The translations under genes and the position numbers were made by a program. Of a DNA stretch of 64,000 nucleotides, positions 15,315 to 55,501 are shown piece by piece. Position 1 is the first letter of the stretch. Every line of letters begins with the position of its first letter. The notes under the pieces are model-generated. The model was not told the DNA's origin. It saw only the letters and a program-made list of their open reading frames with translations, and ran no database searches. This DNA comes from Terriglobia bacterium (GTDB lineage Bacteria > Acidobacteriota > Terriglobia > 20CM-2-55-15), in contig CBDAOY010000008.1 of the NCBI GenBank assembly GCA_965198225.1, positions 192,001 to 256,000 of the forward strand, given 5' to 3'.

Positions 15315-15327
15315 TTGGGTGGTTGGT

Positions 15328-18826: not shown

Positions 18827-18837
18827 ATTCTGCTCCG

Positions 18838-39660: not shown

Positions 39661-41295
39661 CTATCGAGGGTTCGGTTGCTTCTTGTCTTCTGGCACCTCG
39701 ATTACTCGCTTGATGGTACCGAGTATTTCCTCGTCGTCGACCTGGATGAGCTCCGGTGCACCGAACTCCCTCAGGAGGGCAACGGTCTCGGGGTGTTTCA
39801 GCGGGACGCTGCTCCGAAGGTACGGGCCATTCGCCATGTCCGTCACCGACCAACCAAGGTGGGTTCGGACATCCAACCGGGCACCCTTCTCGACGAGGTA
39901 GGAGACCAGCTCATTGTCACCTCTCCAGGCTGCGCCCATCAAAGCGGTGTAGCCGGCGGTGGTGTGCTCAGCATTCACGTCGACTCCGACCTCCTCGACC
40001 AGATACCGGGCGGTAGTGAGGAACGCGTCCGGCGCGTTGACGCTGAAGTTGCCCGTCCAGCCGACGCCGGCCGCGGCCATCAGCGGCGTCGTATTCTCGT
40101 CGGACGGAATCTGTCCGTCAGCGCCATAAGCCACCAGCAGTTTGACCGCCTCGAGGTCGGTTGACTGCGCGGCTCGCCAGAGCGGCGTCGTTCCGGCCCA
40201 TTCGACCCACCGTTGGGCGTGATGGGGCGGGTTGTACCAGGGAGTCTTGGCGATCTTGGCATTCGGGTCGGCGCCTCGGTCCAACAGCATCTTCATCAAC
40301 TCCAGATGGGTCACCTTCTGCTGGACGATGCCCGAATCGGTCGTAGACGCCGTTGGCGTCCAGGCCACCGGAGCCCATCGGCTCGCCACCACGGCGTATA
40401 GCGGTGTCAAACCCTCGATCTCGGTCGCGTTGGGATCTGCGCCGTGATCGAGTAGGTACTTTGCGATGTCGTACCGACCGTTGATCGTCGCAACGATCAG
40501 CGGCGTCGTGCGGTCCACCGGATTGATCCGATCGACGTCAGCTCCAACCTCGACCAGGGCGCGCACGGTGTCGATCAAGCCCCCGCGGGCGGCGTAATGT
40601 AAGGCAGTCATGCCACCCATACCGGTAACCCTGCCTTCACCCCGGGGTCTTGTTCGCGTGATGCCGGTCCGGGACGGGGCCGGTATCGGGTTGCCCTCCT
40701 CGTCAACGAGGTCGTTGCCGACCGGGACCATCTTGCTGATTGCGTCCAGGTCTGCGCCGCGCTTCGCCAGGAGCCGGACTACGGGTGCACGGTCCAGACC
40801 GGCCGCAAACATCAGCGCTGTCTGTTCGCGAGCCCTTTCCCGGACGTCCAGGCTCGCCCCGTTGTCGAGCAGGTGAGTCACCGCGTCCACGCTGCCCGAG
40901 GCGGCCGCCTTCATGAGGACGGTCGTTCCCAGTTCGTTCGTGGCGTTGGCATCGGCCCCGGCGTCGACCAGCATCTCGATCATGGACGCGCTCCCGTTCG
41001 TTGCCGCCAGAAAGAGCGGCACGATCGAGCCAAGGCGGGTTCCGCGCTCGACATCCGCGCCGGCGTCGAGCAGCAAGCGTGCCATCTCGAGGTTATCTTT
41101 GTGGGCGGCCCAATGCAGCGCCGTCATACCGTCGCCCTGGTCTACATTGACGTCGGCGCCCCCTTCGAGCTGGGACCGCACCGCATCGATGTCGCCCCGC
41201 ATGGCCGCGTCCGCAAGATCGGTGGCGGGGGCTGCTGCCATCACCAGCGACATACAGACCACGCAAAGCCCGACGAGTAAACTTCTTGCTAACAT
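39661..41295 (-). CDS. Secreted ankyrin-repeat protein (module copy 1)
   Basis: Signal peptide; multiple G.T[AP]LH.AA / LL..GAD.N repeats. Confidence 0.92.
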   Translation of the reverse strand: MLARSLLVGLCVVCMSLVMAAAPATDLADAAMRGDIDAVRSQLEGGADVNVDQGDGMTALHWAAHKDNLEMARLLLDAGADVERGTRLGSIVPLFLAATNGSASMIEMLVDAGADANATNELGTTVLMKAAASGSVDAVTHLLDNGASLDVRERAREQTALMFAAGLDRAPVVRLLAKRGADLDAISKMVPVGNDLVDEEGNPIPAPSRTGITRTRPRGEGRVTGMGGMTALHYAARGGLIDTVRALVEVGADVDRINPVDRTTPLIVATINGRYDIAKYLLDHGADPNATEIEGLTPLYAVVASRWAPVAWTPTASTTDSGIVQQKVTHLELMKMLLDRGADPNAKIAKTPWYNPPHHAQRWVEWAGTTPLWRAAQSTDLEAVKLLVAYGADGQIPSDENTTPLMAAAGVGWTGNFSVNAPDAFLTTARYLVEEVGVDVNAEHTTAGYTALMGAAWRGDNELVSYLVEKGARLDVRTHLGWSVTDMANGPYLRSSVPLKHPETVALLREFGAPELIQVDDEEILGTIKRVIEVPEDKKQPNPR

Positions 41296-41328
41296 GTATC
41301 TTCCCCTTGTGTTTGGACTTTCCTGGCG

Positions 41329-42708
41329 TCAGATAGAGATTTCCTCTCCGGTGCTGTCGCCGATTTCGGTTATATCAACCCCGAGCCTGTGCAGGACGGT
41401 CAGCCAGAGATTTGCCAGGGGAGTTCCTTCCTCGTTCTTGACATGGAGGTTGCCCCGGACCTGTCCGCTGGCGTGGCCGGCAAGGAATATCGGTAGCCGC
41501 AGGTGTTCGTGAACGTGGGAGTCTCCCATGGGACTGCCGTACACGACGAGAGAGTGGTCTAAGAGATTCCCGTCGCCGTCGGGGGTGTTTCTGAGCTTTT
41601 CCAGAAACGGCGCCACCCGGCTGACGTGATACTCGTTCAGCTGGGCGAACTCCGTGATCTTGTCGGGAAGGGAGCCGTGATGCGAAGCCGAATGGAACGG
41701 TGTCGTCACTCCGCTTTCCGGATAGATCGCCGAACTGACGTCCATCGCCATCTTGAAGGCCGAGACGCGGGTGGTCTCGGTCATGAAGGCCAGTGCCTGC
41801 AGATCCCACATCAGGCTCACATGTTCCTCGAACGAATCGGGCACGCCGACCGGAGCGTCCGGCAACGACCGCTCTCCGGACTGGTCGCTGTTGTACTGCT
41901 CGATCTTCTCTATCCGCCGCTCGATCTCGCGCACGTCTTCGAGATACTGACTGAGCCGGCTGCGGTCGCTCGGCGACAGATCCTTCGCGAGGCGGGTAAC
42001 CGACTGCGTGATCCGGTCCAGAACGCTGTTCTGCTCCCGGAGTCGCAACGCGCGCTCCTCGGCCGAGCCGCCGGCGCCGAACAAACGCTCGAAGACCACG
42101 CGTGGGTTTCTTTCCAGGGGCAGAGGACTTGTCGCGTCAGCCCAGCTGATCGTGTAGGAGTAGACGCAGGAATAGCCGTAGCCGCACGATCCCTTCAGCG
42201 AACCGCCGTCTTCGATGCCCAGCTGAATGGACGGCAAGGGGGTGTCCTGGCCGTGTGCTTGAGCGTAAAGCTGGTCTATCGACGGACCGCAATAGAAATC
42301 CGCACCCTCGGTCATCTTGGGCTTCGCGGCAGTCAGGAAGGTTGCGGCGGCACGCGTATGGTCGGCCCCCTCCTCCTTCAGTGAATGTGCCCTGGCGTTC
42401 TCGAGATCCGTGTTCGTGACGATCGTGAGATAGTCCTGGTACGGCTCCAGCGACTTCAACGTCGGCGTGATCTCGAAATCCGAGCCTTCCTTGGCGGGCG
42501 ACCAGAGGTTCAGCTTCTGGCCTGTTCGGGTGCTGCCACCCGCTCCATGCACGATTTCTATCGTACAGAGGCGGGATTTCGGAACCGCGGCCGTCTGACG
42601 CAATGGCGTCGCTGCCGGCGCCATTGCTTCCAGAAACGGCAACGCCACGGCAGCGCCCATGCCGCGGAGGACCGTGCGGCGGGACATGTGCTTCTTGGTG
42701 ATAAACAT
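41329..42708 (-). CDS. DUF1552 (HxxSHH) family Tat protein (module copy 1)
   Basis: SRRTVLRGMGAAVALPFLE, P.VVFERLFG and FHSASHH. Confidence 0.9.
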   Translation of the reverse strand: MFITKKHMSRRTVLRGMGAAVALPFLEAMAPAATPLRQTAAVPKSRLCTIEIVHGAGGSTRTGQKLNLWSPAKEGSDFEITPTLKSLEPYQDYLTIVTNTDLENARAHSLKEEGADHTRAAATFLTAAKPKMTEGADFYCGPSIDQLYAQAHGQDTPLPSIQLGIEDGGSLKGSCGYGYSCVYSYTISWADATSPLPLERNPRVVFERLFGAGGSAEERALRLREQNSVLDRITQSVTRLAKDLSPSDRSRLSQYLEDVREIERRIEKIEQYNSDQSGERSLPDAPVGVPDSFEEHVSLMWDLQALAFMTETTRVSAFKMAMDVSSAIYPESGVTTPFHSASHHGSLPDKITEFAQLNEYHVSRVAPFLEKLRNTPDGDGNLLDHSLVVYGSPMGDSHVHEHLRLPIFLAGHASGQVRGNLHVKNEEGTPLANLWLTVLHRLGVDITEIGDSTGEEISI

Positions 42709-42789
42709 ACGGTGCTCCTTTTAGCTCTTGAATATGTCTACGCTCGGTTTCTGACCGATCTACAACCGGATCTAAAATGGAGGGCGCGC

Positions 42790-45270
42790 CTACGGCACCC
42801 GTCCAGCGGCGGCGTCGAGGCCAGCCGCATCTACCGTTGGTGACTCCGCTCTTTTCAACCGGAATGGCGGGCTTTCCACGATACCCATGACGATGGATGT
42901 GAACCGATAGTCGTTCCCGGCCGCTTCTCGTTCGATCTGGCGAATCACGGGCATATCGACGTGTGTGACCCCGCGGCCCAGCGCGTAGGTCGTGAGGCGG
43001 ACGATGAAATTCCTCACAATCGAACCCTCATATTTCATCAGGGCCTGGCGAAGACTGGCAGGGCCGTTCACCTTGGTGCCGTCCACCAACTCGGACGACG
43101 GATCGACGGGGTAGCCACTGTCGAGATCGCGCCAGACTCCAATGGCGTCGAAGTTCTCGAGCGCCATGCCTATCGGATCGATGATCTTGTGACACGAGGC
43201 GCACGGTTCGACCATGCGGTGCTTCTCCAGACGCTCGCGCACCGATTGCAGCCTTACGGCGTCACCCCCAACCACGTTGTTTTCCTCCAGCTCAGGGACA
43301 ACGGGGGGGGGTACTGGGGGGGGCACACCCAGAATCTGTTCCAGAACCCACTTGCCGCGCACCACCGGGGATGTCCGATTCGAGAACGACGTGACGGTCA
43401 AAATGCCGCCGTGGCCCAGGAGCCCGAAACGGTTTTCATCGGTCAGCGTCACTCGCCGGAATCTGCTTCCGAGGACGTTGGGTATCCCGTAGTGCTTCGC
43501 GAGGCGTTCATCGACGAACGTATAGTTCGCCGTCAGCAGTTCGAACACGCTGCGATCCTCGCGCATGATGTGGTCGAAGAGGAGTTCCGTTTCGCGCCTC
43601 ATCGATTCGAAGAGATTCTCGTCGGAGTCGGGATACAGGTAGACGTCGGGAAGCACGTCCCTCAGATTGCGCAAAAGCAGCCACTGCACGGCGAAATTTG
43701 TCGCCAGCGATTCGGCGCGCGGGTCAGCCAGCATGCGCCGCACCTGCTGCTCGAGCACCGCGGGGTCGGAGAGCCTTCCTTCCCCGGCGACGGAAACGAG
43801 TTCATCGTCGGGCGTCGAACTCCACAGGAAATGCGACAGCCGGGAAGCCAGCTCCAGGTCGCTGATGGGATAGGCGGCGCCCGGGGCGACACCGGCCGGC
43901 GCGCGTTCGAAGCGGAAAACAAATTCGGGGTTCGCGATGATGAACTGCACGGCCAGACGGATTCCCGAGTCGAAGTCTCCGAGCCCGCGACCGTCATAGT
44001 ATGCCGCCATCAACTCTTCGAGGTGTTCCCCCGTCAATGGCTTCCGAAACGCCTGCTGCGCCAGCGTCGTGACGATCCGACGGGCGCACGGCTCCTCCTC
44101 GTCCGGGGTCGCCGGCTGGCAGACCAGAATCTTCCGGCGGCTCGGCATGTCGCTCACACCGGTCGCATTGTGCGGACCCTCGATCACTAGATCCGCCAGG
44201 TGCACCAGCGTTGTCACTCCAAAAGCCTGGCCGAGGAAATCATCTCTCAAGCTGCGTTCCGGCTGGTGCATGAAGTCGTCGATGGGACCGTCGGCCTTCG
44301 TGATGAACGAAGCTGTGACCCTTTGCGGTCCCGCCTCCACTCGAACCGGGTCCGTTCGAAAGTCGTTTTCACCGGCCAGCAGCAGCGGGTCGATGTCAAA
44401 CAGCCCGACCCTCTCGCCGTTAACGGTCACCTCGAGTTGCTCGCCCTCGCCGGTGCTCCCGAACAGAAACGTGTTTCTCGTGAAGTAGAGTGACATCCTG
44501 AAGACATATTCCGCGTCGGCCGGGAAGTTGTGCACGATGGCCATGCCTCCGCGCGTCCCGAATGGCGTGCCTTCAATGTGACGAAGCTGGGAAAAGGTCG
44601 TTGGGATTTTGTACGGCTCGACAGTGGACGACATCTCGGCATCGCCGATTGCAAGACGGCTGATCTTCCCGGCCGCTCGGACGTATGATTCCATCAGCGT
44701 CGGGTTCGATGTCAGGACATCCGCGATGTTGTCGAAGCCGTATGTCATGTTGTCGGCCGGCAGGAGCGATTCCACGTCGATGTCCAGTTCGAGAAGGTCG
44801 CGGATGGAGTTGCTGTATTCGGTTCGGTTGAGCCGATAAAGGGCCGGCCGGCCGGGGTTCGGTTCGGCCAGGGCAACTCGGTCGATGTTCCCTTCGAGTG
44901 CGTCAACGAAGGACTGGACGGTGTCCCACTCCGGCCGCGGCATTCCGGCCGGGGGCATCATGCCTCCTCGCAGCTTGAGAATGATCTCTTCGGCCAGCTC
45001 TGCGTTCTGGTCGGGATGCGACAGGTCAATGTCGGAGAGTGAGAAATCTCCCGTTCGCAGGTCGTCGTCGTGGCAGGAGCCGCAATACTGTTCGGCAAAT
45101 CCCCGTTGTGATTCCACCGACATCGTTCCGGCTGCTTGAGATGCCGTAGTCATCCCCGATGGACTGGTTGCCGTCGGGACGCCATTCACCGTGGCGAACG
45201 TCATCGACGTTTGTGCCAGCACCAGAGCTGCCAATAAGACCAAACCACCGAGAATCCAAACTCTCTTCAT
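42790..45270 (-). CDS. PSD/PSCyt (DUF1587/1595/1592/1588/1585) dihaem protein (module copy 1)
   Basis: CGSCH, RLNRTEYSNSIRDLL, ELASRLSHFLWSS.PD, RTSPVVRGKWV and CASCH..IDPIG.ALENFD. Confidence 0.92.
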   Translation of the reverse strand: MKRVWILGGLVLLAALVLAQTSMTFATVNGVPTATSPSGMTTASQAAGTMSVESQRGFAEQYCGSCHDDDLRTGDFSLSDIDLSHPDQNAELAEEIILKLRGGMMPPAGMPRPEWDTVQSFVDALEGNIDRVALAEPNPGRPALYRLNRTEYSNSIRDLLELDIDVESLLPADNMTYGFDNIADVLTSNPTLMESYVRAAGKISRLAIGDAEMSSTVEPYKIPTTFSQLRHIEGTPFGTRGGMAIVHNFPADAEYVFRMSLYFTRNTFLFGSTGEGEQLEVTVNGERVGLFDIDPLLLAGENDFRTDPVRVEAGPQRVTASFITKADGPIDDFMHQPERSLRDDFLGQAFGVTTLVHLADLVIEGPHNATGVSDMPSRRKILVCQPATPDEEEPCARRIVTTLAQQAFRKPLTGEHLEELMAAYYDGRGLGDFDSGIRLAVQFIIANPEFVFRFERAPAGVAPGAAYPISDLELASRLSHFLWSSTPDDELVSVAGEGRLSDPAVLEQQVRRMLADPRAESLATNFAVQWLLLRNLRDVLPDVYLYPDSDENLFESMRRETELLFDHIMREDRSVFELLTANYTFVDERLAKHYGIPNVLGSRFRRVTLTDENRFGLLGHGGILTVTSFSNRTSPVVRGKWVLEQILGVPPPVPPPVVPELEENNVVGGDAVRLQSVRERLEKHRMVEPCASCHKIIDPIGMALENFDAIGVWRDLDSGYPVDPSSELVDGTKVNGPASLRQALMKYEGSIVRNFIVRLTTYALGRGVTHVDMPVIRQIEREAAGNDYRFTSIVMGIVESPPFRLKRAESPTVDAAGLDAAAGRVP

Positions 45271-45398
45271 GAACGTATCCCCGTCGGCTGTCGCCTGTCG
45301 AAGGCCCTGGGTTCGAGGGCAAGACGCGTCTCACGATTGCGCACACCCCGCCCCCAGGAATTTGCATAGAACAAAATATATAGAGTAACCCGTCGACG

Positions 45399-45427
45399 AT
45401 TATAGAAGGCATGCTACCGATCTACAA
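45399..45427 (-). promoter_or_regulatory. Candidate sigma70 promoter for module copy 1
   Basis: TTGTAG-N17-TATAAT on the minus strand. Confidence 0.55.
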
Positions 45428-45471
45428 CAAAATATAGGGGGAAAAAGAGGCGTTAGGCCGCTGCGCGGCCA

Positions 45472-45950
45472 GTAGGCCGTAGGCCGTTGATGTGTTGCTC
45501 GGCGCGGTTTGGTCGGTAACTGGCGAGGGGCGAGTTTGTTCCGTAGGCCGTAGGCCGTTGATGTGTTGCTTAACGACAAGCTGCTGGTGACTGGCGAGGT
45601 GTGGACGGCAAGACCAAATGGTGTCGGACAATTAGGTAAAATACGTCGCCAGTCACCAACCGATCCTCGCTGGGTCGAAACCACAACGGCCTACGGCCTA
45701 CGAAAGACGGGCGGGACGGGGAAGTGACAAGTGACGAGTCAAAATTGACCAGTAAGAGCGTTGGGCCGCTGGGCGGACGAGTCAAAATTGACCACGTAGG
45801 CCGTAGGCCGTTGATGCGTTGCTTACTGACAAGCCGCGGGTAACTGGCGAGGCGTGGACGGCAAGACCACAATGCTGCAATAGGCAAAATGCGTCGCCAG
45901 TCACCAACAGATCCTCGCTGGGCCGAAACCACAACGGCCTACGGCCTACG
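45472..45950. repeat. Second palindromic repeat family: two ~160-bp copies (45542-45702, 45795-45950) plus a partial copy
   Basis: 19-bp perfect terminal IR CGTAGGCCGTAGGCCGTTG...CAACGGCCTACGGCCTACG and inner IR GGTGACTGGCGA...TCGCCAGTCACC. Confidence 0.85.
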
Positions 45951-46000
45951 AAAGACGGGCGGATGACGGGACGGGAAGTGACGATGACGAGTGAGAAGGT

Positions 46001-46066: not shown

Positions 46067-46091
46067 ACTTCCTTTACGTCGCAGCAGCTTT

Positions 46092-47249
46092 TCAGGCGCT
46101 GCGGTAAAGTTTGGTGAGGACAAATTCCTCGTGTCCGAGTACCTCCGCCGCCGTCCGTCTTCCGTTCATCGTGCGGACCAGCATGTCGATCAATGCGTCG
46201 CCGGCCTGATCGAGATTCATTTCACGGCGCAGGATGCCGCTGATGTCGACGTCGATGTGCTCCGACATGGTTTCCACGGTGATCGGGTTGGCGGTGGTCT
46301 TGATGACCGGGATGATCGGATGGCCGACGATGTTTCCCTGACCCGTCGTGAAGAAATGGACGACCGACCCGGCGGCGGCCCACAGAGTGATCGCTTCCGC
46401 CGCCGCCGATGAAGTGTCCATAAACCACAGCCCCGGGCCCGTGGGTGCTTCGGCGGGCTTCAGGACCCCGATATACTTCGTCTTACCGATTTTCTGAAGG
46501 TTCCCGAGCGCCTTCTCTTCGATCGTCGTCAACCCGCCCGTGATGTTTCCCTTGGTGGGCTGGGATCCCAGCAGATCCACGCCCTGGCCCACTATGAAGT
46601 CGTTGTAGTCGCTCCAGGTCTTGTAGAACGCCTCCTGAACTTCAGGGGTTGCGCCTTGCGCCTTAGCGATTTCCTCGGCGCCCGTAATCTCCGAGGTTTC
46701 GCCGAACATGAATGTCGTTCCCATGGGAACGATTCTGTCCACGACGTTACCGATGGCGGGATTGGAGGCAAGCCCGGATGTCGTGTCCGATTCGCCGCAC
46801 TTCGTCGACAGGGTGAGATCCTCGAAGGTGCACTCGGTCCGTTCCTGCTCCGACGCCCACTGTACGAATTCCATCGCTTTTCGCGACGCCATCTCGACGG
46901 TCTTGAGATCGCCGTGGCGCTCGATGGCAAACCCGGCAACCGGTTTGCCGGTTTTCGCGATGCCGTCGACGAGCCGCTGGGTCCAGATGGGCTCGATGCC
47001 GATGACCACGCAAGCCGCCACGTTCGGGTTGGCGCCCGTACCAATCAAAGTGTCGAAGTACAGTTCCAGATCCTCGCCAAACTGCAGTCGGCCGTACGGG
47101 TGAGGCAGGGCGATAGTGCCGCGAATATGACTGGCAACCGCTTCACAGGCAGAGTTCGACAGGTCGTCGAGCGGAAGAATCACCACGTGATTTCGAACCC
47201 CGACGGTGCCGTTGCCGCGTCGATACCCTTGGAAGACAATCTTCTCCAT
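46092..47249 (-). CDS. suyB: UxaA-family large subunit, (2R)-sulfolactate sulfo-lyase beta-like
   Basis: [39 protein letters not shown] and [12 protein letters not shown]. Split architecture with a separate SAF subunit. Start ATG 47249. Confidence 0.8.
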
Positions 47250-47251
47250 CG

Positions 47252-47530
47252 CTACCACCTCGTAGTCTTCAGGTTGTGGGTGTGGACATGATCCCCGACC
47301 TCGAAGCTCTCTGACGCGATGCCGATGCTCACGCCGTACTTGATGACCTCTTCTCCCTTTCCTCGGGGGCTGATGGCGATCTTGTGGCCGAGTGGAATGT
47401 CCTCGGTCGCGGTCAGGGTCGACGTGGAGTCGTCCTCCATGGTCCAACCCTCCACCGATTCACCTTTCTTGAGATCGACCACCGCAACGCCCACCTGGTC
47501 CACCGTGTTGTGTCGAATGAATCCGATCAT
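47252..47530 (-). CDS. suyA: SAF-domain small subunit, sulfolactate sulfo-lyase alpha-like
   Basis: 92 aa: [25 protein letters not shown] and [11 protein letters not shown]. Confidence 0.8.
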
Positions 47531-47733
47531 TGTTGAAGTTTCCTCGCTGGTCAGTCTGGCGCATCGCCCCGCTCCGTTGATCCGGCGGTACCGGAAGAGC
47601 GTAAACCCCGGCAGCCAGGCGGGGAAAAGCGGCGACATCGTAGCACAGGTGTCGGAACCCGCCGCGCCAAATCAGTTGAATCGTCAGCCGGAAACCCGCC
47701 GGCCATCAGCGTCGCGAAGCCCACCGCCGCGGC

Positions 47734-48660
47734 TCAGTTCTGGGTGTCGAGTTCTCCGCGAAGTTCCATCAGGATGCGGTCGACAGCGATCGGAAGGTTG
47801 CGGTACGCGTTGATCAGCGTGGCATATTTCTTCAGCGGAGAACGATCCATGATTTCGTCTCTGCTCAGACGCCGATCGTAATAGCCCTTGACCTCGGCCC
47901 GCATGTCGAGCAGATCGTCGCGCATCTGGCGCACGGTTTCACGGAGCCGACCCCCGTTCTCCACGATTCCGTGGCCCGGGATGAAGATGTCCGCGTCGAG
48001 TTCCAGGACCCGGTTCAGGGTTTCGATCCATTCGGTGGGGTATCCGGAACGCAAACCGGGGAACTGCTTGTTGAAGAAAATCTCACTCAGGAAGACGACC
48101 CTTTCGTCCGGAAGGTAGATCACGCTGTCGCCCTCGGTGTGGGCCCGGCCCAGAAAACCGATGCGTATCTGCTTGTCGCCGAGAAAGAGCGTAAGGCTGT
48201 CCTCGTATGTCATCACGGGAGGGGCTTGAGGTATATCAGTGGCCCTCTCGTAGTATTGCAGTAACCCCTGCCTGGCCTTCCGGTGCCCGACGATCAAAGC
48301 TCCGGCGTCTCGAAACAGATGGTTTCCGTTGGTGTGATCGGGGTGCCAGCTACAGTTGATCAGGTACTTGATCGGCTGGTCGGTCAGCTTGCGAATCTCG
48401 TCGATCAGTTTCTGCGCTTTGACATCGCTTTCATGAGCGTCACCGACATGTCCCAGTTCGTCACCGACGAGGACACCCTCTTCGGTGATCACCACCAGCG
48501 AGCTCACCGTGGCGGGGTCCTGGCTGCCGTCCGATTCGGTGTAGACATAGACGCCGTCCGCAACGCGCTGCATCCCGAGCTGATCCTGTCCGAAAACTTG
48601 TGGCGCTGCGGCGATGATTGTCACCGTGCCGATGAGCATGGGGAGCCGAAACCAGGTCAT
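47734..48660 (-). CDS. Exported metallo-beta-lactamase-fold hydrolase (cyclase-like)
   Basis: Signal peptide; SWHPDH (variant HxHxDH), AHTEGD and IPGHG. Confidence 0.8.
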   Translation of the reverse strand: MTWFRLPMLIGTVTIIAAAPQVFGQDQLGMQRVADGVYVYTESDGSQDPATVSSLVVITEEGVLVGDELGHVGDAHESDVKAQKLIDEIRKLTDQPIKYLINCSWHPDHTNGNHLFRDAGALIVGHRKARQGLLQYYERATDIPQAPPVMTYEDSLTLFLGDKQIRIGFLGRAHTEGDSVIYLPDERVVFLSEIFFNKQFPGLRSGYPTEWIETLNRVLELDADIFIPGHGIVENGGRLRETVRQMRDDLLDMRAEVKGYYDRRLSRDEIMDRSPLKKYATLINAYRNLPIAVDRILMELRGELDTQN

Positions 48661-49747: not shown

Positions 49748-49784
49748 CCCCGCCTTGCGCCCACCGATTCTGTCCGCAATTTGA

Positions 49785-49814
49785 TTGCAGACAGGGGGGG
49801 TGCCGTCCTATAAT
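49785..49814 (+). promoter_or_regulatory. Candidate sigma70 promoter for module copy 2
   Basis: TTGCAG-N18 (containing G7)-TATAAT. Confidence 0.5.
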
Positions 49815-49928
49815 TCGCCCAGGTTTTTGCGTCATTTATCGAAATAATAACAAGTGGCCCTTCGGAACCCTCAAGTGATGGATCGTCGAGGGGGCCCGAC
49901 CCAGTCCCCGCAGCCGGTAGAAAGACCG

Positions 49929-52370
49929 ATGAAAAAAATATCCGTTTTCGTTCTCATAGCCCTATTCGTGGTGTTGCTTCTTGGACATGCGAACAGAATG
50001 CTGGTGGCCGGGCCCTCGTCGCCATCAGCGCAAACCTCCCAGACGATGACAGTCGCCGATCGAGTGGCACTGGTCGAGCAGTACTGTGCTTACTGCCACG
50101 ACGACGACGTGCGTGACGGAGGCTTTTCGTTCTTCACCGACGTCGACCTCGAGCATCCGGATCAAACCGCGGAGCAAGTCGAGAAAGTGATCCTCAAGCT
50201 GCGAACCGGAATGATGCCTCCGACCGGCATGCCGCGGCCCGGGGATGACTCCCTCATGGAATTCGCGGCGGCGTTGGAAACCGACGTCGATCGCGTCGCC
50301 GCCGAAAACCCGAATCCAGGCCGACCGTCCCTTCACCGGCTGAATCGAACCGAGTACCAGAACTCGATCCGCGACCTGCTGGATCTCGAAATTGACGCGG
50401 CTTCGTTCCTGCCGGCCGACGACATGAGTCACGGTTTCGACAACATGTCGGAGGTGCTGACCGTTTCCTCGACGCTGATGGAGGCCTACATTCGGGCCGC
50501 GGGCAAGATCGGACGCATCGCCGTTGGTGACCCTGGCATGCAGCCGGTAGTCGAGACGTATGCAGTCTCGACGAGTTTCTCCCAGGACAACTACGTTGAA
50601 GGGACGCCTTTCGGGACGCGGGGCGGAACCGCTTTTGTGCATAACTTTCCGGCCGATGGGGAATACATACTAATCGTTTCGCTGGTGTTCACTGCGAACA
50701 CGAACCTGTTTGGTAACAGCGCCAAGGGTGAAAAGGTCGAGGTCGCCGTGAACGGCGAGAGGGTCGCTCTGTTCGACGTCGATCCCACCATGCAAGTCGA
50801 CGAGCTCCTGGAAACGCCCCCGATCGCCATGAAGATGGGGCCTCAGAAGATTTCGGTCTCGTTTTTGAGAAGCGTCAACAGGAGCGACGGCCCCTACGAC
50901 GATCTGCTTCGGCCGATCGGACGGACCCTGGGTGATATCTCCGCCGGTTCGGTGATGGGACTGACAAACCTGCCCCACGTCCGGGATGTCGGGATCAAGG
51001 GGCCGTACAACGCAACCGGCGTGAGCGACACTCCCACTCGTCGCAAGATATTCACGTGTCGCCCGACCAACGCAGGCGAAGAGGCGTCCTGCGCCACCGA
51101 GATCATTTCGGTCCTGGCGCGCCAGGCGTTCCGGAAGCCTGTATCGGCGGAGCACCTCGAGGAGTTGATGGCGGTCTATGAGACCGCCCGGGAAAATGGG
51201 GACTTCGATTCGGGCATCCGTGTGGCGCTGCAGTTGATGCTGGCCCACCCCGAATTCGTTTTCCGCTTCGAGAAGACCCCCGTCGGCGTCGAACCCGGTA
51301 CAAACTACCGCATCGACGACCTGGAGCTGGCAGCCCGGCTGTCGTATTTTCTGTGGAGCACGGCCCCCGACGACGAACTCATCAACCTTGCCAGCCAGGG
51401 ACGTCTCTCGGATCCCGATGTTCTCGAGCAGCAGGTGCGGCGATTGCTGGCCGATCCTCGCTCCGAGGCGCTGGCGCGGAACTTCGCAGGACAGTGGCTG
51501 TACCTGCGTAATCTGAAAGACTCGCAACCGGACATTTACATCTACCCCGAAATCGACGACGGCCTGCTGCAGTCGATGCGGCGCGAGACGGAGCTTCTCT
51601 TCGACAGCATCGTGCGAGAGAACCGCAACGTGGTTGACCTGCTGACGGCGGATTACACGTTCGTCAACGAGCCCCTGGCGAAACACTACGGGATCTCCGG
51701 TGTTCTGGGGAACCGGTTCCGGCGGGTCGCGCTCACCGACGCGAACCGTTTTGGCGTGCTGGGGCATGGAAGCGTCCTGACCGTGACGTCGTTCTCCAAC
51801 CGGACCTCTCCGGTCGTACGTGGCAAGTGGGTCCTGGAACAGATCGTGGGTGCGATTGCACCGGTGCCTCCTCCCAACGTCCCGCCGCTGGAAGAAAACA
51901 CCGTTAACGGCGGCGAACTGGTCCAGCCCAAATCAGTGCGGGACCGTCTCGAGCTGCACCGCCAGAACGAGCCGTGCATGTCGTGCCACAAGATCATCGA
52001 CCCGATCGGGCTGGCGCTGGAGAATTTCGATGCGATCGGGGCCTGGCGTGACCGGGATAGCGGTTACCCTGTCGTCACAACGGGGGAGCTCGTAGACGGG
52101 ACTCCTGTGGAGGATCCGGTCAGCCTCCGGCGCGCGCTTTTGGGGTATTCCGACGCCTACCTCCGGAATTTCACCAAGCAGCTATTGACCTATGCGCTGG
52201 GCCGAGGAGTCGAATACTACGATATGCCGGTGGTTCGCCAGATCGCACGCGATGCGGCCGACGAGGACAACCGGTTCGTGCCGATCGTCATGGGAATCGT
52301 GAACAGCATGCCGTTTCAGATGAGAAGGGCGGAGCGGCCCACCGATTTGAATGAGCGCCAACAGAGGTGA
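49929..52370 (+). CDS. PSD/PSCyt dihaem protein (module copy 2)
   Basis: CAYCH and CMSCH with the same motif set as 42790..45270. Likely start MKKISVFVLIA. Confidence 0.92.
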   Translation: MKKISVFVLIALFVVLLLGHANRMLVAGPSSPSAQTSQTMTVADRVALVEQYCAYCHDDDVRDGGFSFFTDVDLEHPDQTAEQVEKVILKLRTGMMPPTGMPRPGDDSLMEFAAALETDVDRVAAENPNPGRPSLHRLNRTEYQNSIRDLLDLEIDAASFLPADDMSHGFDNMSEVLTVSSTLMEAYIRAAGKIGRIAVGDPGMQPVVETYAVSTSFSQDNYVEGTPFGTRGGTAFVHNFPADGEYILIVSLVFTANTNLFGNSAKGEKVEVAVNGERVALFDVDPTMQVDELLETPPIAMKMGPQKISVSFLRSVNRSDGPYDDLLRPIGRTLGDISAGSVMGLTNLPHVRDVGIKGPYNATGVSDTPTRRKIFTCRPTNAGEEASCATEIISVLARQAFRKPVSAEHLEELMAVYETARENGDFDSGIRVALQLMLAHPEFVFRFEKTPVGVEPGTNYRIDDLELAARLSYFLWSTAPDDELINLASQGRLSDPDVLEQQVRRLLADPRSEALARNFAGQWLYLRNLKDSQPDIYIYPEIDDGLLQSMRRETELLFDSIVRENRNVVDLLTADYTFVNEPLAKHYGISGVLGNRFRRVALTDANRFGVLGHGSVLTVTSFSNRTSPVVRGKWVLEQIVGAIAPVPPPNVPPLEENTVNGGELVQPKSVRDRLELHRQNEPCMSCHKIIDPIGLALENFDAIGAWRDRDSGYPVVTTGELVDGTPVEDPVSLRRALLGYSDAYLRNFTKQLLTYALGRGVEYYDMPVVRQIARDAADEDNRFVPIVMGIVNSMPFQMRRAERPTDLNERQQR

Positions 52371-52445
52371 GGGCAGCTCTATGGAGCCGCTCACCGAAAC
52401 TTGAAATTTTGATTTAGTTTTAGAAACTCAACTCAGGAGCACCGA

Positions 52446-53825
52446 ATGTTCATTACCAAGAAACACATTTCCCGCCGGACGGTTCTTCGCGGCATGGGGG
52501 CGGCCGTGGCGTTGCCGTTTCTGGAATCGATGGCGCCCGCGCAGACCCCATTGAAGAACACAGCCGCATCGTCGCCGACGCGGCTGTGTGCGATCGAAAT
52601 GGTGCACGGGGCGGCCGGCAGCACGCGGTTAGGCCAGAAGCTGAACCTCTGGTCGCCGGCAAAAGAGGGATCCGACTTTGAGATCACTCCAACGCTGATG
52701 TCGCTCGAGCCCTACCAGGACTACCTCACGATCGTCACCAACACCGACCTCGACCCGGCCCGAGCCTGGGTGGCCAAGGAGGAGGGTTCCGACCATACCC
52801 GTTCAGCGGCAACCTTCCTGACGGCTGCGCACCCGAAGATGACTGAGGGGGCGGACATCTATTGCGGCACCTCCATGGATCAGGCCTACGCGCACCACGC
52901 TGGCCAGGACACGCCGCTGCCTTCGATCCAGCTCTGCATCGAGAACGTCGGGTCGCTGTCAGCCGCCTGCGGCTACGGCTACAGTTGTGTGTACGCGAAC
53001 ACGATCTCCTGGTCCGATCCGACGACTCCTCTGCCGATGGAGCGCGACCCGCGGGTCGCCTTCGAGCGATTGTTCGGAAGCGGGGGCACACCGGAAGACC
53101 GTCTGAACCGGAGACGCGAGGACCGTAGCATTCTCGACACGATCACGCACGCTGTGGCGCGGTTGCAACAGGACCTTGGCCCGAGCGATCGCGAACGGCT
53201 CCAGGGTTATCTGCAGGATGTCCGGGAGATCGAGCGCCGGATCCTGAAGATCGAGCAGTACAACAGCGACAATCCCGACGTCAGGGAACTGCCGGCCGCG
53301 CCGATCGGCGTGCCGGATTCGTTTGACGAGCACGTGGCGCTGATGTTCGACCTGCAGGCGCTGGCGTTTATGGCGGATGTGACGCGGGTCTCGGCTTTCA
53401 AGATGGGACGCGACGTCAGCGCGCGGGTTTATCCCCCAAGTGGCGTCAAGACGCCGTTCCATTCGGCCTCACATCACGGCGATAAGGCGGAAAGCGTCGC
53501 CGAGTTTGCCCAGCTGAACCAGTATCACGTCAGCACGGTTGCCCCCTTCCTGGAGAAGCTGAAGAATACTCCCGATGGCGACGGCAACCTGCTGGATCAC
53601 TCGCTGGTCATGTACGGGAGCCCGATGGGGAACTCTCATGTTCACGAACACTTAAGGCTACCAATATTCCTCGTCGGACACGCCAACGGTAAGATCAAGG
53701 GCAACCTCCACCTGAAGATGCCGGAAGGAACACCCTTGGCTAATCTGATGCTGACCATGCTGCATCGACTCGGTCTCGACGATCTCACCGAGTTCGGCGA
53801 CAGCACCGGCGAGCTTGCTATCTGA
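52446..53825 (+). CDS. DUF1552 (HxxSHH) family Tat protein (module copy 2)
   Basis: 459 aa, same length as copy 1; CGYGYSCVY, FHSASHH and SHVHEH. Confidence 0.9.
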   Translation: MFITKKHISRRTVLRGMGAAVALPFLESMAPAQTPLKNTAASSPTRLCAIEMVHGAAGSTRLGQKLNLWSPAKEGSDFEITPTLMSLEPYQDYLTIVTNTDLDPARAWVAKEEGSDHTRSAATFLTAAHPKMTEGADIYCGTSMDQAYAHHAGQDTPLPSIQLCIENVGSLSAACGYGYSCVYANTISWSDPTTPLPMERDPRVAFERLFGSGGTPEDRLNRRREDRSILDTITHAVARLQQDLGPSDRERLQGYLQDVREIERRILKIEQYNSDNPDVRELPAAPIGVPDSFDEHVALMFDLQALAFMADVTRVSAFKMGRDVSARVYPPSGVKTPFHSASHHGDKAESVAEFAQLNQYHVSTVAPFLEKLKNTPDGDGNLLDHSLVMYGSPMGNSHVHEHLRLPIFLVGHANGKIKGNLHLKMPEGTPLANLMLTMLHRLGLDDLTEFGDSTGELAI

Positions 53826-53866
53826 GGCCCTTAACGGGAAAGAGAGAATTCAGGAGGAGACCGAAC

Positions 53867-55501
53867 ATGTTGCGGAAGACCTTGCTAATAGCAGTGATTG
53901 TGGTTTCGATGGCAGGCGTGCTGTCGGCGGCCCCGGGAGACGTTCGACTGGCCGATGCAGCACAGCGGGGTGACGTGGACGCCGTGCGTTCCCTGCTGGC
54001 GGAAGACGTCGATGTCAGTGCCTCCCAGGGAGACGGCATGACGGCCCTACACTGGGCGGCGTACAGGAACGACCTCGAATTGGCCCAGCTGTTGACCGAA
54101 GCCGGCGCCGACATTCACGCGGTGACGCGTGAAGAAGCGCTCACTCCGCTCCTGCTGGCCGGTGGTACGGGAAACGCGGCGTTGATCGAGTTGTTGCTCG
54201 ACGCCGGAGCGGATGCGAATTCAGCCAATTCGATCGGGACGACCGTTCTGATGGAGGCCGCGGCGGCGGGCAGCGTGGCCGCGGTGAAGACGTTGCTGGA
54301 TCGTGGAGCGGACCCGAACGAGAAAGCCCTCCGTGACCAGACCGCGCTGATGTTCGCGGCAGCTCGAAACCGCGCTGACGTCGTCCGACTGCTGGGGCCT
54401 CGCGGTGCGGATCTGAATGCGACGAGCGAGACACTCCCGATGGATTTGCCCCTCTTTGACGACAACGGCAACCGCATCCCGAATCGTACGGGTGCCGGTC
54501 GGCCGAAAGCGGACATGATGGGTGGGAACACCCCGCTGCATTATGCCGTTCGCGAGGGTCACTTTGACGCCGTCCGCGCCCTGGTCGAGACTGGCGCCAA
54601 CGTCAACGAGCGGAACCCCGGGGACAGGATGACGCCGATCGTCATGGCGATCGTCAACGGCGAGTTCGATATCGCGAAGTACCTGCTGGACCATGGTGCG
54701 GACCCGAACATGGCGACCGTCGACGGTCTGGCTGCTCTTTACGCCACGATCGACATGCGGTATGCCCCTGTCGCCTGGTCCCCGACCAGGCAGACCGCGG
54801 CCAGCGGCATCTCGCAACGGGAGTTGAGCTACCTCGGTTTGATGGAGATTCTGCTGGAGAAAGGCGCCGAGCCCAACGTTCGGTTGGTAAAGCCCCTGTG
54901 GTTCAGACCGCCCCATCACAACCAGATGTGGGTCAGTGCCGCAGGATCGACCCCGTTCTGGCGAGCCGCGCAGGCAAACGACCTCGGTGCGATGAAGCTC
55001 CTGGTCGCGTATGGCGCCGACCCGGCGGTCCAGTCGACGGAGGGCAACACGGCGCTGGCGATGGCAGCCGGGATCGGCTGGCTCGGGAATTTCGCCCTGA
55101 ACCATCCGGACGGCTATATGCCGTCGACCCAGTACCTTGTCGAAGAACTCGGCATCGAAGTAGAGACCGCGGACAAGAAGGGTTACACGCCGCTGATGGG
55201 CGCCGCGCACCGGGGCGACGAAGAGATGGTCCAGTATCTCGTAGACCATGGCGCGAACCTGCAAAGTCGAACCGAGCTCGGATGGGCGGTGACGGACATG
55301 GCGAACGGACCCTATATCGGTTCGAGCGTTCGCCTGTCCCATCCCGACACCGTCGCGCTTCTGCTCGAGTTGGGTGCTCCGTCGGTGATCAACCTGGGTG
55401 ACGAGGAAATACTGGGTGTTATCAAACGCCAGATCGAGGTGACCGAGGACGGATACCGGGAGAAGAAATCGGACCCCAAGAAGACCCCGAACCCTCGTTA
55501 G
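53867..55501 (+). CDS. Secreted ankyrin-repeat protein (module copy 2)
   Basis: 544 aa, paralog of 39661..41295. Confidence 0.92.
   Translation: MLRKTLLIAVIVVSMAGVLSAAPGDVRLADAAQRGDVDAVRSLLAEDVDVSASQGDGMTALHWAAYRNDLELAQLLTEAGADIHAVTREEALTPLLLAGGTGNAALIELLLDAGADANSANSIGTTVLMEAAAAGSVAAVKTLLDRGADPNEKALRDQTALMFAAARNRADVVRLLGPRGADLNATSETLPMDLPLFDDNGNRIPNRTGAGRPKADMMGGNTPLHYAVREGHFDAVRALVETGANVNERNPGDRMTPIVMAIVNGEFDIAKYLLDHGADPNMATVDGLAALYATIDMRYAPVAWSPTRQTAASGISQRELSYLGLMEILLEKGAEPNVRLVKPLWFRPPHHNQMWVSAAGSTPFWRAAQANDLGAMKLLVAYGADPAVQSTEGNTALAMAAGIGWLGNFALNHPDGYMPSTQYLVEELGIEVETADKKGYTPLMGAAHRGDEEMVQYLVDHGANLQSRTELGWAVTDMANGPYIGSSVRLSHPDTVALLLELGAPSVINLGDEEILGVIKRQIEVTEDGYREKKSDPKKTPNPR

What the first reader, a model, noticed from the sequence alone, without database searches (positions are those of the whole stretch)
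39661..55501. Triplicated uncharacterised periplasmic system: dihaem PSD protein - Tat HxxSHH (DUF1552) - secreted ankyrin
Seen: two complete copies in divergent orientation (39661-45270 on -, 49929-55501 on +) with the same gene order. The DUF1552 (459 aa) and ankyrin (544 aa) proteins have identical lengths between copies, the promoters are similar (TTG[CT]AG-N17/18-TATAAT), and a third ankyrin starts at the window end. Conserved candidate ligands: DUF1552 E.VHG, DH, CGYGYSCVY, HSASHH, SHVHEH; PSD 2x CxxCH. Established: DUF1592-type/DUF1552 pairs are widespread in Planctomycetes, Myxobacteria and Acidobacteria with no assigned function. Inference: a cofactor-loaded Tat metalloenzyme wired to a cytochrome, with a dedicated ankyrin third subunit or maturation factor. 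Flanking suyAB, cytochromes, PAL-like, SnoaL, MBL and TonB genes suggest oxidative periplasmic breakdown of imported organics, possibly organosulfur compounds.
Basis: partly seen in the sequence, partly recalled or inferred. Interest (0 to 1): 0.8.

Follow-up and report, generated by a model that had tools for sequence, protein, structure and literature searches.

The report
Cytochrome, sulfatase-fold protein, ankyrin operon
Two full copies (and the tail of a third) of a three-gene periplasmic operon of unknown function, in which a secreted ankyrin-repeat protein turns out to be a faithfully conserved companion of a two-haem cytochrome and a sulfatase-shaped enzyme across soil bacterial phyla.

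Summary
Two intact operons lie at 39661-45270 (-) and 49929-55501 (+). Each encodes a PSCyt3/PSD dihaem cytochrome, a Tat-signal DUF1552 (HXXSHH) protein and a signal-peptide ankyrin. The copies are 60/76/57% identical, so they are old paralogues. A third ankyrin exists at the window end, but it is the 3' end of a minus-strand gene, not a start.

New findings:
- The ankyrin is a dedicated partner. In 79 related genome loci, 85 of 89 evaluable ankyrin genes sit directly downstream of DUF1552, and 79 of 79 of those have PSD upstream. The three genes co-diverge.
- DUF1552 folds as a sulfatase/alkaline-phosphatase-superfamily protein (AF2 pLDDT 88; 35 PDB hits, all that superfamily). It lacks the formylglycine motif and has an invariant His at that place in the motif (alignment from recall).
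- The ankyrin-linked clade has its own residues at the ends of core strands (E51, H54, K319).

The PSCyt3-DUF1552 pair and the "Tat enzyme plus cytochrome" idea are already in print and function is unknown. The organosulfur link is not supported, because flanking genes are not conserved. The most likely reading is a redox-coupled periplasmic metalloenzyme with an ankyrin assembly or stabilising subunit. The mechanism is inferred, not shown.

The parts
45399..45427 (-). promoter-like motif TTGTAG-N17-TATAAT upstream of triad A
   Evidence: 1 match in the window, 0 in 100 shuffles. It aligns with the copy B motif over the -35 to -10 region. Function untested.
42790..45270 (-). PSD-A: Sec-signal, dihaem PSCyt3/PSD multidomain protein (826 aa)
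   Evidence: CxxCH at C63/C66/H67 and C690/C693/H694, M105, and C384/C395 are conserved in 73-74 of 74 sequences.
41329..42708 (-). DUF1552-A (HXXSHH), twin-arginine leader, sulfatase/alkaline-phosphatase-superfamily fold (459 aa)
39661..41295 (-). Ankyrin-A: signal-peptide ankyrin-repeat protein (544 aa)
39599..39623 (-). terminator-like hairpin (10 pairs, 8 GC, T-run) just after ankyrin-A
49785..49814 (+). promoter-like motif TTGCAG-N18-TATAAT upstream of triad B
49929..52370 (+). PSD-B (the ORF opens at GTG 49854; ATG 49929 is the likely start)
52446..53825 (+). DUF1552-B (459 aa)
53867..55501 (+). Ankyrin-B (544 aa)
55529..55555 (+). terminator-like hairpin (12 pairs, 9 GC, T-run) just after ankyrin-B
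63521..64000 (-). 3' end (C-terminal ~159 aa) of a third ankyrin paralogue; the rest lies beyond the window
   Evidence: 72% identical to ankyrin-A residues 389-529, 60% to ankyrin-B

Best explanation
Each triad is a self-contained periplasmic three-protein module made from one operon.

The three proteins:
1. A Sec-exported ~800-aa PSCyt3/PSD protein carrying two covalently bound c-type haems: an N-terminal His/Met class-I-like site and a second CxxCH in the PSCyt3 domain.
2. A Tat-exported DUF1552 protein. It has the alpha/beta core of the sulfatase/alkaline-phosphatase superfamily but has lost the formylglycine nucleophile. It carries instead a conserved His-rich set (H117, H339, H343, H344, H400) plus invariant acidic residues. 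I read this set as a metal centre.
3. A Sec-exported ankyrin-repeat protein.

Proposed mechanism (inferred): DUF1552 is the catalytic subunit and acts on a small, probably anionic, periplasmic substrate. Electrons pass between its metal centre and the two haems of the PSD protein, which connects it to the periplasmic cytochrome pool. The ankyrin binds the enzyme or cytochrome as an assembly or stabilising subunit, as AnkB-type ankyrins do for periplasmic catalases.

The ankyrin belongs to one clade of the family, found mainly in Acidobacteriota and Gemmatimonadota. In that clade the residues at the ends of the core strands are remodelled (E51, H54, T100, D101, K319, F338), so this clade probably has its own metal or substrate specificity.

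Shown: gene content, operon-like layout, export signals, haem motifs, fold class, synteny and co-divergence.
Inferred: metal binding, redox coupling, complex formation and the ankyrin's role.
Unknown: the substrate.
For: Layout: gaps of 81/33 nt (copy A) and 75/41 nt (copy B), with a terminator-like hairpin after each ankyrin.

Export: R10 and R11 are each present in 95% of 98 DUF1552 sequences, and a weak Pfam TAT_signal match occurs in 37 of 93. The PSD and ankyrin proteins have hydrophobic N-termini with Ala-rich ends (by eye).

Haem: C63/C66/H67 and C690/C693/H694 in 73 of 74, M105 in 74 of 74, H684 in 73 of 74. There are weak cytochrome c Pfam hits at the N-terminus.

Fold:
- AF2 with 93 diverse sequences gives pLDDT 88.1 and pTM 0.89.
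- Foldseek against PDB gives 35 hits at E<=1e-3. Every listed row is an S1 sulfatase, LtaS/LtaP or an alkaline-phosphatase-superfamily protein, with probability about 1.0 and TM 0.29-0.45.
- The poorer first model gave the same superfamily.
- The DUF1552 profile finds a DUF1501 protein at E 9.2e-6 among 645 sequences. hhalign gives 79% probability over 92 columns and aligns H400/H402 with the DUF1501 DHNH motif.

Conserved site: H117, D145, D231, D248, E263, H339 and H343 are kept in 180-181 of 181, and H400 in 177 of 181.

Ankyrin linkage:
- 85 of 89 evaluable ankyrin genes have DUF1552 directly upstream (gap 9-288 nt, median 111).
- 79 of 79 of those with at least 2 kb upstream have PSD upstream of DUF1552.
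- The loci are labelled 47 Acidobacteriota, 23 Gemmatimonadota and 9 other phyla.
- Distance matrices correlate: DUF-ANK rho 0.82, PSD-DUF 0.84, PSD-ANK 0.82. Nearest neighbours agree in 42 of 64 triads, against a mean of 3.7 and a maximum of 8 in 500 within-phylum shuffles.
- 19 longest-contig lengths are shared between the DUF1552 and ankyrin hit lists.

Clade signature: E51+H54 in 77 of 79 ankyrin-linked DUF1552 genes but in 2 of 96 family representatives. The top discriminating positions are 319, 51, 58, 177, 53, 112, 100, 338 and 54.

Precedent: ankyrin proteins encoded with periplasmic catalases interact with them and promote their activity (PMC10294975 section 4.1, passages read).
Against: - No metal, haem or activity has been measured.
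- No redox enzyme is known in the alkaline-phosphatase superfamily (my recollection, not a call), so the redox reading has no precedent on this fold.
- Canonical superfamily features are missing. The sulfatase C/S-x-P/A-x-R motif is found in 1 of 181 sequences and at an unrelated place. No alkaline-phosphatase-clan Pfam family matches any of 93 members, even at E<=10. PDB sequence searches with profiles A1 and A3 found no sulfatase.
- TM-scores are modest (0.29-0.45) and identity is 8-13%.
- I could not obtain model coordinates, so clustering of the His residues is inferred only from their positions at strand ends and helix starts.
- The ankyrin is not universal. 4 of 89 ankyrin genes lack an upstream DUF1552 (L029, L054, L060, L072). 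6 of 89 DUF1552 genes in these loci lack a downstream ankyrin. Only 2 of the 96 family-wide representatives carry the E51+H54 state of the ankyrin-linked clade; their gene context was not seen.
- The loci are the best 80 of 548 ankyrin matches, were chosen through the ankyrin, and are all MAGs.
- Co-divergence of adjacent genes follows from linkage alone and does not prove contact.
- The clade node has weak support (0.32, FastTree, midpoint root).
- Flanking genes give no substrate clue.
Confidence: 0.5

Rival explanations
1. DUF1552 is an ordinary, non-redox hydrolase or transferase of the sulfatase/alkaline-phosphatase kind, acting on phosphate, sulfate or phosphonate esters. The PSD protein is then a substrate-binding, anchoring or sensing partner whose haems are not on the catalytic path, and the ankyrin is a scaffold.
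For: Every structural neighbour is a hydrolase or transferase. K319 and other strand-end residues resemble anion-binding residues of sulfatases (the analogy is recalled). He et al. report CBM domains on some PSCyt proteins and sulfatase genes nearby.
Against: The nucleophile motif is absent. Both haem motifs, the axial Met and H684 (a candidate ligand of the second haem) are kept in 73-74 of 74 sequences across two phyla, which argues that the haems matter. The tight 1:1 gene pairing is described in the literature.
Confidence: 0.2
2. The dihaem PSD protein acts on DUF1552 itself, as MauG acts on its target: it oxidatively matures a protein-derived cofactor from the conserved C175-G-Y-G-Y-S-C181 / Y183 / W189 segment. 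The ankyrin holds the two together during maturation.
For: C175 and C181 are kept in 102 of 109 clade members and about 75% family-wide, and Y183 and W189 in over 90%. Dihaem maturases are a recalled precedent, not a call.
Against: There is no sequence or profile similarity of PSD to any solved protein. The PSD protein is very large and multidomain for a maturase. The Cys pair may simply be a periplasmic disulfide. The 1:1 stoichiometric gene pairing in every copy fits a stable partner better than a maturase.
Confidence: 0.1
3. The ankyrin is not part of the enzyme. It is a secreted 'eukaryote-like' effector or an unrelated periplasmic protein that merely hitch-hikes in the operon.
For: Ankyrin repeats are generic. 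The NCBIfam best hits are Legionella Ank effector models, all far below their cut-offs. Four family members are not next to DUF1552.
Against: Adjacency is 85 of 89, with a median gap of 111 nt on the same strand. Co-divergence is as strong as for PSD-DUF. Family-specific invariant Trp, His and Asn positions lie outside the repeat consensus. Tandem arrays duplicate the three genes as a unit.
Confidence: 0.08
4. The similarity of the two copies is an assembly artefact or a chance resemblance.
For: None found.
Against: The copies are 57-76% identical, not near-identical repeats. Both paralogue types have separate close relatives elsewhere. Tandem triads are common in other genomes.
Confidence: 0.01

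Closest known systems
PSCyt3/PSD (DUF1587-1595-1592-1588-1585) + DUF1552 two-gene module of Planctomycetes/Verrucomicrobia (He et al. 2017, PMC5615132, section 13 and Text S1 read; Studholme et al. 2004 recalled only)
   Same: Same Pfam domain set and order in the large protein, and the same neighbour family. Function is unknown in both.
   Different: Here a third gene, a secreted ankyrin, is part of the unit, and the DUF1552 belongs to a clade with E51/H54/K319 instead of Y/N/M. No ankyrin is mentioned in the main text of that paper. Its Fig. S7, which draws the gene order, is a picture I could not read.
PSCyt1/PSCyt2/PSD1 + DUF1501 module (Kamneva et al. 2012, PMC3542564, passages read)
   Same: A large CxxCH protein is paired with a Tat-signal protein. 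DUF1552 and DUF1501 are distantly homologous at least in the C-terminal third, and the atlas places them nearest each other (lead only). Those authors proposed electron transport plus a Tat-exported cofactor enzyme.
   Different: The Pfam families of both partners differ, and no ankyrin is described. In locus L012 the two module types lie side by side.
S1 formylglycine sulfatases / alkaline-phosphatase superfamily (e.g. PDB 8eg3, 6bia, 3lxq, 4uor)
   Same: The overall alpha/beta core fold. A conserved 'FLTG'-type helix follows the residue at the nucleophile position, and a D/N-x-H motif follows a late strand (comparison with the sulfatase signature is from memory).
   Different: There is no C/S-x-P-x-R motif (1 of 181, off-site), and His117 stands where the nucleophile is expected. 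The strand-1 residues are Y/N or E/H rather than Asp-Asp (recalled). There is a long helical hairpin insert at about 216-310 and no Pfam clan match. It is paired with a cytochrome.
katB-ankB / katE-ankyrin / Cj1386-KatA: ankyrin accessory proteins of periplasmic haem catalases (PMC10294975 section 4.1, passages read; original papers seen only as references)
   Same: An ankyrin-repeat protein with an export signal is encoded in one operon with a periplasmic haem protein. It is proposed to stabilise the enzyme or help its haem loading.
   Different: The partner here is a c-type cytochrome plus a sulfatase-fold protein, not a catalase. This ankyrin is much larger (544 aa) and forms its own family. 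No interaction has been shown.

Membership tests
PSCyt3/PSD - DUF1552 module | Large protein with PSD3, PSD5, PSD4, PSCyt3 and PSD2 domains | tested here: met
   all five domains are above the gathering score in both copies.
PSCyt3/PSD - DUF1552 module | Adjacent gene of Pfam PF07586 (HXXSHH/DUF1552) | tested here: met
   (E 3.6e-83 and 1.3e-83). The genes are adjacent with gaps of 81 and 75 nt. PSD lies upstream of DUF1552 in 79 of 79 related triads.
c-type cytochrome (PSD protein) | CxxCH haem-attachment motif(s) with a conserved axial ligand, plus export by Sec | tested here: met
   both CxxCH in 73 of 74, M105 in 74 of 74, H684 in 73 of 74. The N-terminal signal-like segment was judged by eye.
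c-type cytochrome (PSD protein) | Match to a curated cytochrome c model above its cut-off | tested here: not met
   Cytochrome_CBB3 at 17.3 and 23.6 bits against a cut-off of 27; PSCyt1 at 17.6 and 17.8 bits against 22.
c-type cytochrome (PSD protein) | Covalently bound haem in the protein | not testable with these tools
   Needs pyridine haemochrome or haem staining of the purified protein.
Tat substrate (DUF1552) | Twin-arginine motif S/T-R-R-x-F/V-L-K/R followed by a hydrophobic stretch | tested here: met
   SRRTVLRG at residues 9-16 in both copies. R10 and R11 are at 95% in 98 sequences. The Pfam TAT_signal match is below its cut-off (17 against 22.7 bits).
Alkaline-phosphatase / sulfatase superfamily (DUF1552) | Shared alpha/beta core fold | tested here: met
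   35 PDB matches at E<=1e-3, with all listed rows from this superfamily. TM-scores are only 0.29-0.45.
Alkaline-phosphatase / sulfatase superfamily (DUF1552) | Ser/Thr/formylglycine nucleophile (sulfatases: C/S-x-P/A-x-R) | tested here: not met
   the motif occurs in 1 of 181 sequences, at an unrelated position. The corresponding segment is GDH[FTA]R..A.FLT, with His117 kept in 180 of 181.
Alkaline-phosphatase / sulfatase superfamily (DUF1552) | Acidic metal ligand(s) at the end of strand 1 | tested here: inconclusive
   Position 51 is E in 84 of 109 clade members but Y/F in 64 of 72 others. Position 54 is H in the clade and N elsewhere. There is no structural superposition to fix the equivalence.
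Alkaline-phosphatase / sulfatase superfamily (DUF1552) | Sequence-profile match to a clan family | tested here: inconclusive
   No clan family matches in 93 members at E<=10. There is, however, a profile link to DUF1501. That DUF1501 belongs to the Pfam alkaline-phosphatase clan is my recollection, not a call.
AnkB-type periplasmic ankyrin accessory | Ankyrin repeats plus an export signal, encoded in an operon with a periplasmic haem protein | tested here: met
   The signal peptide was judged by eye only.
AnkB-type periplasmic ankyrin accessory | Physical interaction with the enzyme, and a requirement for its activity | not testable with these tools
   Needs pull-down and knockout experiments.

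The most novel reading that the evidence does not exclude
DUF1552 would be the first redox enzyme built on the sulfatase/alkaline-phosphatase scaffold. A His-ligated metal centre has replaced the formylglycine/Ca site and exchanges electrons with a dedicated dihaem cytochrome. In one Acidobacteriota/Gemmatimonadota clade, a periplasmic ankyrin has become an obligatory third subunit or assembly factor of a remodelled (E51/H54/K319) active site. On this reading, the very large PSCyt-DUF1552 and PSCyt-DUF1501 gene families of Planctomycetes, Verrucomicrobia, Acidobacteria and relatives would be an unrecognised class of periplasmic oxidoreductases acting on ester-type or anionic substrates.
Probability: 0.25. 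Interest if true: 0.85.

Novelty: new variant of a known kind. Interest (0 to 1): 0.6.

Why it matters
PSCyt/PSD proteins with their DUF1552 or DUF1501 partners are among the largest uncharacterised gene families in Planctomycetes, Verrucomicrobia and Acidobacteria. Two papers call them intriguing and state that function is unknown.

This work adds three practical handles:
- A fold class for the Tat-exported partner, with a defined set of invariant His/Asp/Glu residues to mutate.
- A sequence-level link between the DUF1552 and DUF1501 partners, so that results on one module should inform the other.
- A clade in which a third protein, a periplasmic ankyrin, is kept with the pair in 85 of 89 cases. 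This offers a natural bait for pull-downs and a rare case of a bacterial ankyrin with an evident house-keeping partner.

Ankyrin-repeat genes in bacterial genomes are often read as eukaryote-directed effectors (general knowledge). This family shows that some belong to periplasmic enzyme systems instead.

Tried and rejected
- Complex prediction of mature DUF1552 (residues 33-459, alignment A3) with mature ankyrin (25-530, A4): no verdict, score 0.00 in both runs, controls not run. This counts neither for nor against binding. PSD could not be included because of the 1000-residue limit.
- The first AF2 model, from 44 close homologues, was mediocre (pLDDT 66.6) and gave only weak fold matches. It was replaced by the model from 93 diverse sequences.
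- PDB sequence searches found nothing relevant. The DUF1552 profiles A1 and A3 matched only coiled-coil noise, and PSD as a single sequence and as profile A2 found nothing below E 0.3.
- Pfam at E<=10 on 93 DUF1552 members showed no alkaline-phosphatase-clan family. Pfam on the unannotated middle of PSD (residues 205-395) showed nothing.
- NCBIfam has no model for PSD or DUF1552.
- The atlas searches gave leads only, with scores <=0.82, and no structure search was possible.
- Rfam found no family at gathering score anywhere in the window, so there is no known riboswitch in the leaders.
- Flank analysis for a conserved neighbour found none beyond 9 of 79 loci.
- The look-up of cluster names to find a cultured carrier returned no organism names.
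- 'suyAB' is only partly borne out. A SAF-domain ORF (47252-47638) precedes a GD_AH-family large subunit (46092-47447), which is the split layout expected of SuyAB. The only NCBIfam hit is galactarate dehydratase at 146 bits, far below its cut-off of 731.

Full report
**What is there**

The window (about 60% G+C) carries two intact three-gene units in divergent orientation.
- Copy A (minus strand): PSD 42790-45270, DUF1552 41329-42708, ankyrin 39661-41295.
- Copy B (plus strand): PSD 49929-52370, DUF1552 52446-53825, ankyrin 53867-55501. The open frame for PSD-B begins at GTG 49854, but the alignment with copy A starts at the ATG at 49929.

Pfam finds PSD3, PSD5, PSD4, PSCyt3 and PSD2 in both large proteins, HXXSHH/DUF1552 (E about 1e-83) in both 459-aa proteins, and ankyrin repeats in both 544-aa proteins. 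The copies are 60%, 76% and 57% identical, so they are old paralogues. Gaps within each unit are 33-81 nt.

Each unit is preceded by a promoter-like TTG[TC]AG-N17/18-TATAAT that occurs nowhere else in the window. Each is followed at once by a strong terminator-like hairpin.

A tblastn of the six proteins against the window finds one more piece. It is the C-terminal 141 residues of a third ankyrin, 72% identical to ankyrin A, on the minus strand at 64000->63578. It therefore ends in the window, and the rest of any third unit would lie beyond it.

**The large protein**

In 74 sequences (72 from related loci plus the two here) the following are conserved:
- both CxxCH motifs in 73
- Met105, in a G-M-M-P-P context typical of an axial ligand, in 74
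- a Cys384/Cys395 pair in 74
- His684, six residues before the second CxxCH, in 73

The N-terminus is signal-like. This fits a Sec-exported protein with two covalent haems.

**The Tat protein**

Both copies start MFITKKH.SRRTVLRG, and the arginine pair is kept in 95% of 98 diverse family members. A first AF2 model from close homologues was poor. A second, from 93 sequences down to 32% identity, reached pLDDT 88.1 and pTM 0.89.

Foldseek against the PDB gave 35 matches at E<=1e-3. All listed rows are formylglycine sulfatases, LtaS/LtaP or another alkaline-phosphatase-superfamily protein, with TM-scores of 0.29-0.45 and 8-13% identity. So the fold class is clear, but the protein is a distant and elaborated member.

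By sequence the link is invisible to Pfam and to PDB profile searches. However, the DUF1552 profile picks out a DUF1501 protein in locus L012 at E 9e-6 among 645 sequences. hhalign aligns the C-terminal third at 79% probability, matching H400 and H402 to the DUF1501 DHNH motif. The two Tat partners of the two 'planctomycete cytochrome' modules are therefore distant homologues.

**The candidate active site**

The sulfatase nucleophile motif is absent (1 of 181, off-site). Where it would be expected, the family has G-D-H-[FTA]-R-x-x-A-x-F-L-T, with His117 kept in 180 of 181 sequences. Placing His117 at the nucleophile position rests on my recalled sulfatase signature and on its place at the start of a helix after strand 2, not on a superposition.

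Family-wide invariant or nearly invariant residues are H117, D145, Q146, S160, D231, D248, E263, H339, H343, H344 and H400.

**The ankyrin**

Homologues are full-length and form a family of their own, with invariant Trp, His, Asn and Pro positions outside the repeat consensus. 548 of 568 pattern matches encode a relative, and the best 80 gave 79 loci. By record label these are 47 Acidobacteriota, 23 Gemmatimonadota, 4 Pseudomonadota, 3 Actinomycetota and 2 Cyanobacteriota. All are MAGs, so the odd labels may be binning errors.

Counts from a tblastn of the loci:
- 94 ankyrin genes with at least 70% coverage were found. Two weaker partial hits were set aside.
- 5 had less than 300 nt upstream and could not be judged.
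- 85 of the remaining 89 have a DUF1552 gene directly upstream on the same strand (gap 9-288 nt, median 111).
- All 79 of those with at least 2 kb upstream have a PSD gene upstream of that.

The four exceptions:
- L054: the ankyrin follows MacB/FtsX and DUF4147/MOFRL genes.
- L072: PSD is followed directly by the ankyrin, with DUF1552 missing.
- L029 and L060: two more distant ankyrins.

Conversely, 6 of 89 DUF1552 genes in these loci have no ankyrin after them. Four of these sit in tandem arrays next to a full triad. Tandem arrays of triads are common (9 loci with two complete triads), so the multi-copy state of this window is typical.

**Evolution as a unit**

For 62 complete triads plus the two here, pairwise distances correlate as well for DUF1552-ankyrin (rho 0.82) and PSD-ankyrin (0.82) as for PSD-DUF1552 (0.84). 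The nearest neighbour by DUF1552 is also the nearest by ankyrin in 42 of 64 triads, against a mean of 3.7 (maximum 8) in 500 within-phylum shuffles. This shows that the three genes are inherited and duplicated together. Adjacent genes would do so even without touching, so it does not show binding.

**A clade with its own site**

On a FastTree of 181 DUF1552 sequences, all 79 ankyrin-linked genes fall in a clade of 109 tips. Node support is weak (0.32), the tree is midpoint-rooted, and 26 tips are of unknown context.

E51+H54 is found in 77 of 79 ankyrin-linked genes, in all 4 ankyrin-less genes inside arrays, in neither of the 2 ankyrin-less genes outside the clade, and in 2 of 96 family representatives. 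The best discriminating positions are K319 (others M), E51 (Y), V53 (P), H54 (N), T100 (L), D101, E112 and F338 (H). Many of these lie at the C-terminal ends of the core strands in the model, which is where this superfamily builds its active site (general knowledge).

I read this as a remodelled site, and so a distinct metal or substrate, that arose together with the ankyrin. It is one evolutionary event, so the association carries no statistical weight beyond that.

**Context**

Around the triads in the window lie the following:
- a SAF ORF plus a GD_AH large subunit (SuyAB-like layout, unverified)
- an MBL-fold protein
- a small cytochrome c and a multihaem-TPR protein
- TonB-dependent receptors
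- an NHL protein and a SnoaL-like protein
- further away, aprB, Qmo/Hdr-like genes, TauE and a SorA-like molybdoenzyme

Across the 79 loci, 605 flanking ORFs form no family present in more than 9 loci: TonB-dependent receptor 9, MacB-like 8, DUF5916 7, NHL 5, SusD 5. The organosulfur reading therefore rests on this one neighbourhood and is not supported as a property of the module.

**Literature**

- He et al. [quoted passage not shown] 'Ankyrin' does not occur in their main text. Their Fig. S7 is an unreadable picture.
- Kamneva et al. 2012 (passages read) proposed electron transport plus a Tat-exported cofactor enzyme for the DUF1501/PSCyt module.
- Full-text searches found no functional study and no ankyrin partner. 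The terms were DUF1552 (3 papers), DUF1592 (2), PSCyt3/PSCyt2/DUF1588/DUF1501/HXXSHH (15), DUF1553/DUF1549/PSCyt1 since 2018 (3), DUF1501+sulfatase (3), and ankyrin+Acidobacteria+Gemmatimonadetes+periplasmic+cytochrome c (1).
- A review (PMC10294975, section 4.1) records that ankyrin proteins encoded with periplasmic catalases interact with them and promote their activity.

**Verdict**

- The 'pair plus cytochrome wiring' idea is known.
- The dedicated ankyrin, the sulfatase-like fold with His in place of the nucleophile, the DUF1552-DUF1501 link and the clade-specific site were not found in print in the library searched.
- The mechanism (redox-coupled metalloenzyme with an ankyrin assembly or stabilising subunit) is my best inference at about 0.5 for the whole statement.
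- The architectural part is near certain. The chemistry is open.
- Physical binding of the three proteins has not been shown by any search.

Noticed in passing
window 4083-5771 (+) and 5840-7015 (+): Two adjacent ORFs (562 aa with a signal-like N-terminus; 391 aa starting MDRRNFIK..., Tat-like) match no Pfam or NCBIfam family. This may be another unknown periplasmic pair.
   Followed up: partly
window 14043-21265 (-): A sulfur-energy gene cluster: aprB-like (APS-reductase_C, 20819-21265), two HdrA/QmoA/B-like flavoproteins (15328-17463, 17522-20383) and a QmoC equivalog above its cut-off (14043-15182, 393 bits against 300). TauE (12814-13635) and a HIT protein lie next to it. My greedy ORF call may have hidden aprA.
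   Followed up: partly
window 46092-47638 (-): A SAF-domain small ORF (47252-47638) directly upstream of a GD_AH-family large subunit (46092-47447). This is the split layout of SuyAB-type sulfo-lyases, but only family-level matches were found, so identity is unverified.
   Followed up: partly
window 45472-45571 (-): Upstream of the triad A promoter-like motif, a direct repeat of about 28 nt (agcaacacatcaacggcctacggcctac) occurs twice about 72 nt apart (seen).
   Followed up: no
window 9859-12796: Two transposase genes (DDE_Tnp_1_4 on the minus strand; DUF772+DDE_Tnp_1 on the plus strand) lie between the CitMHS transporter and the TauE/Qmo cluster.
   Followed up: no
window 32562-33758 (+) and 31599-32534 (+): A SorA/SoxC-like molybdopterin oxidoreductase (177 bits, below the equivalog cut-offs) lies next to a malate dehydrogenase that scores above its cut-off.
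   Followed up: no
L012 1757-6144 (+): A 966-aa ORF followed by a DUF1501 protein (E 1.6e-137) lies immediately upstream of a PSD-DUF1552-ankyrin triad, so the two module types sit side by side.
   Followed up: partly
L029 15436-20704 (+): A different order: a more distant ankyrin (36% identical) precedes a PSD and a Y51/N54-type DUF1552 that has no ankyrin after it.
   Followed up: no
L007, L008, L020, L022, L031, L034, L056, L063, L068: Triads occur in MAGs labelled Bifidobacteriaceae, Gammaproteobacteria, Cyanobacteriota and Acidimicrobiia. A periplasmic Tat/cytochrome c system is implausible for some of these, so binning or labelling errors, or gene transfer, should be checked.
   Followed up: no
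ankyrin homologues: Many carry a precomputed Pfam accession, PF28177.1, that is absent from the local Pfam copy. Its name and extent are unknown to me. It may be a recent model that covers part of this ankyrin family.
   Followed up: no
window 47734-48660 (-): The best NCBIfam matches of this MBL-fold protein are the 'quinoprotein relay system zinc metallohydrolase' (SoxH-related) models, far below their cut-offs. Metallo-beta-lactamase models also match weakly.
   Followed up: no
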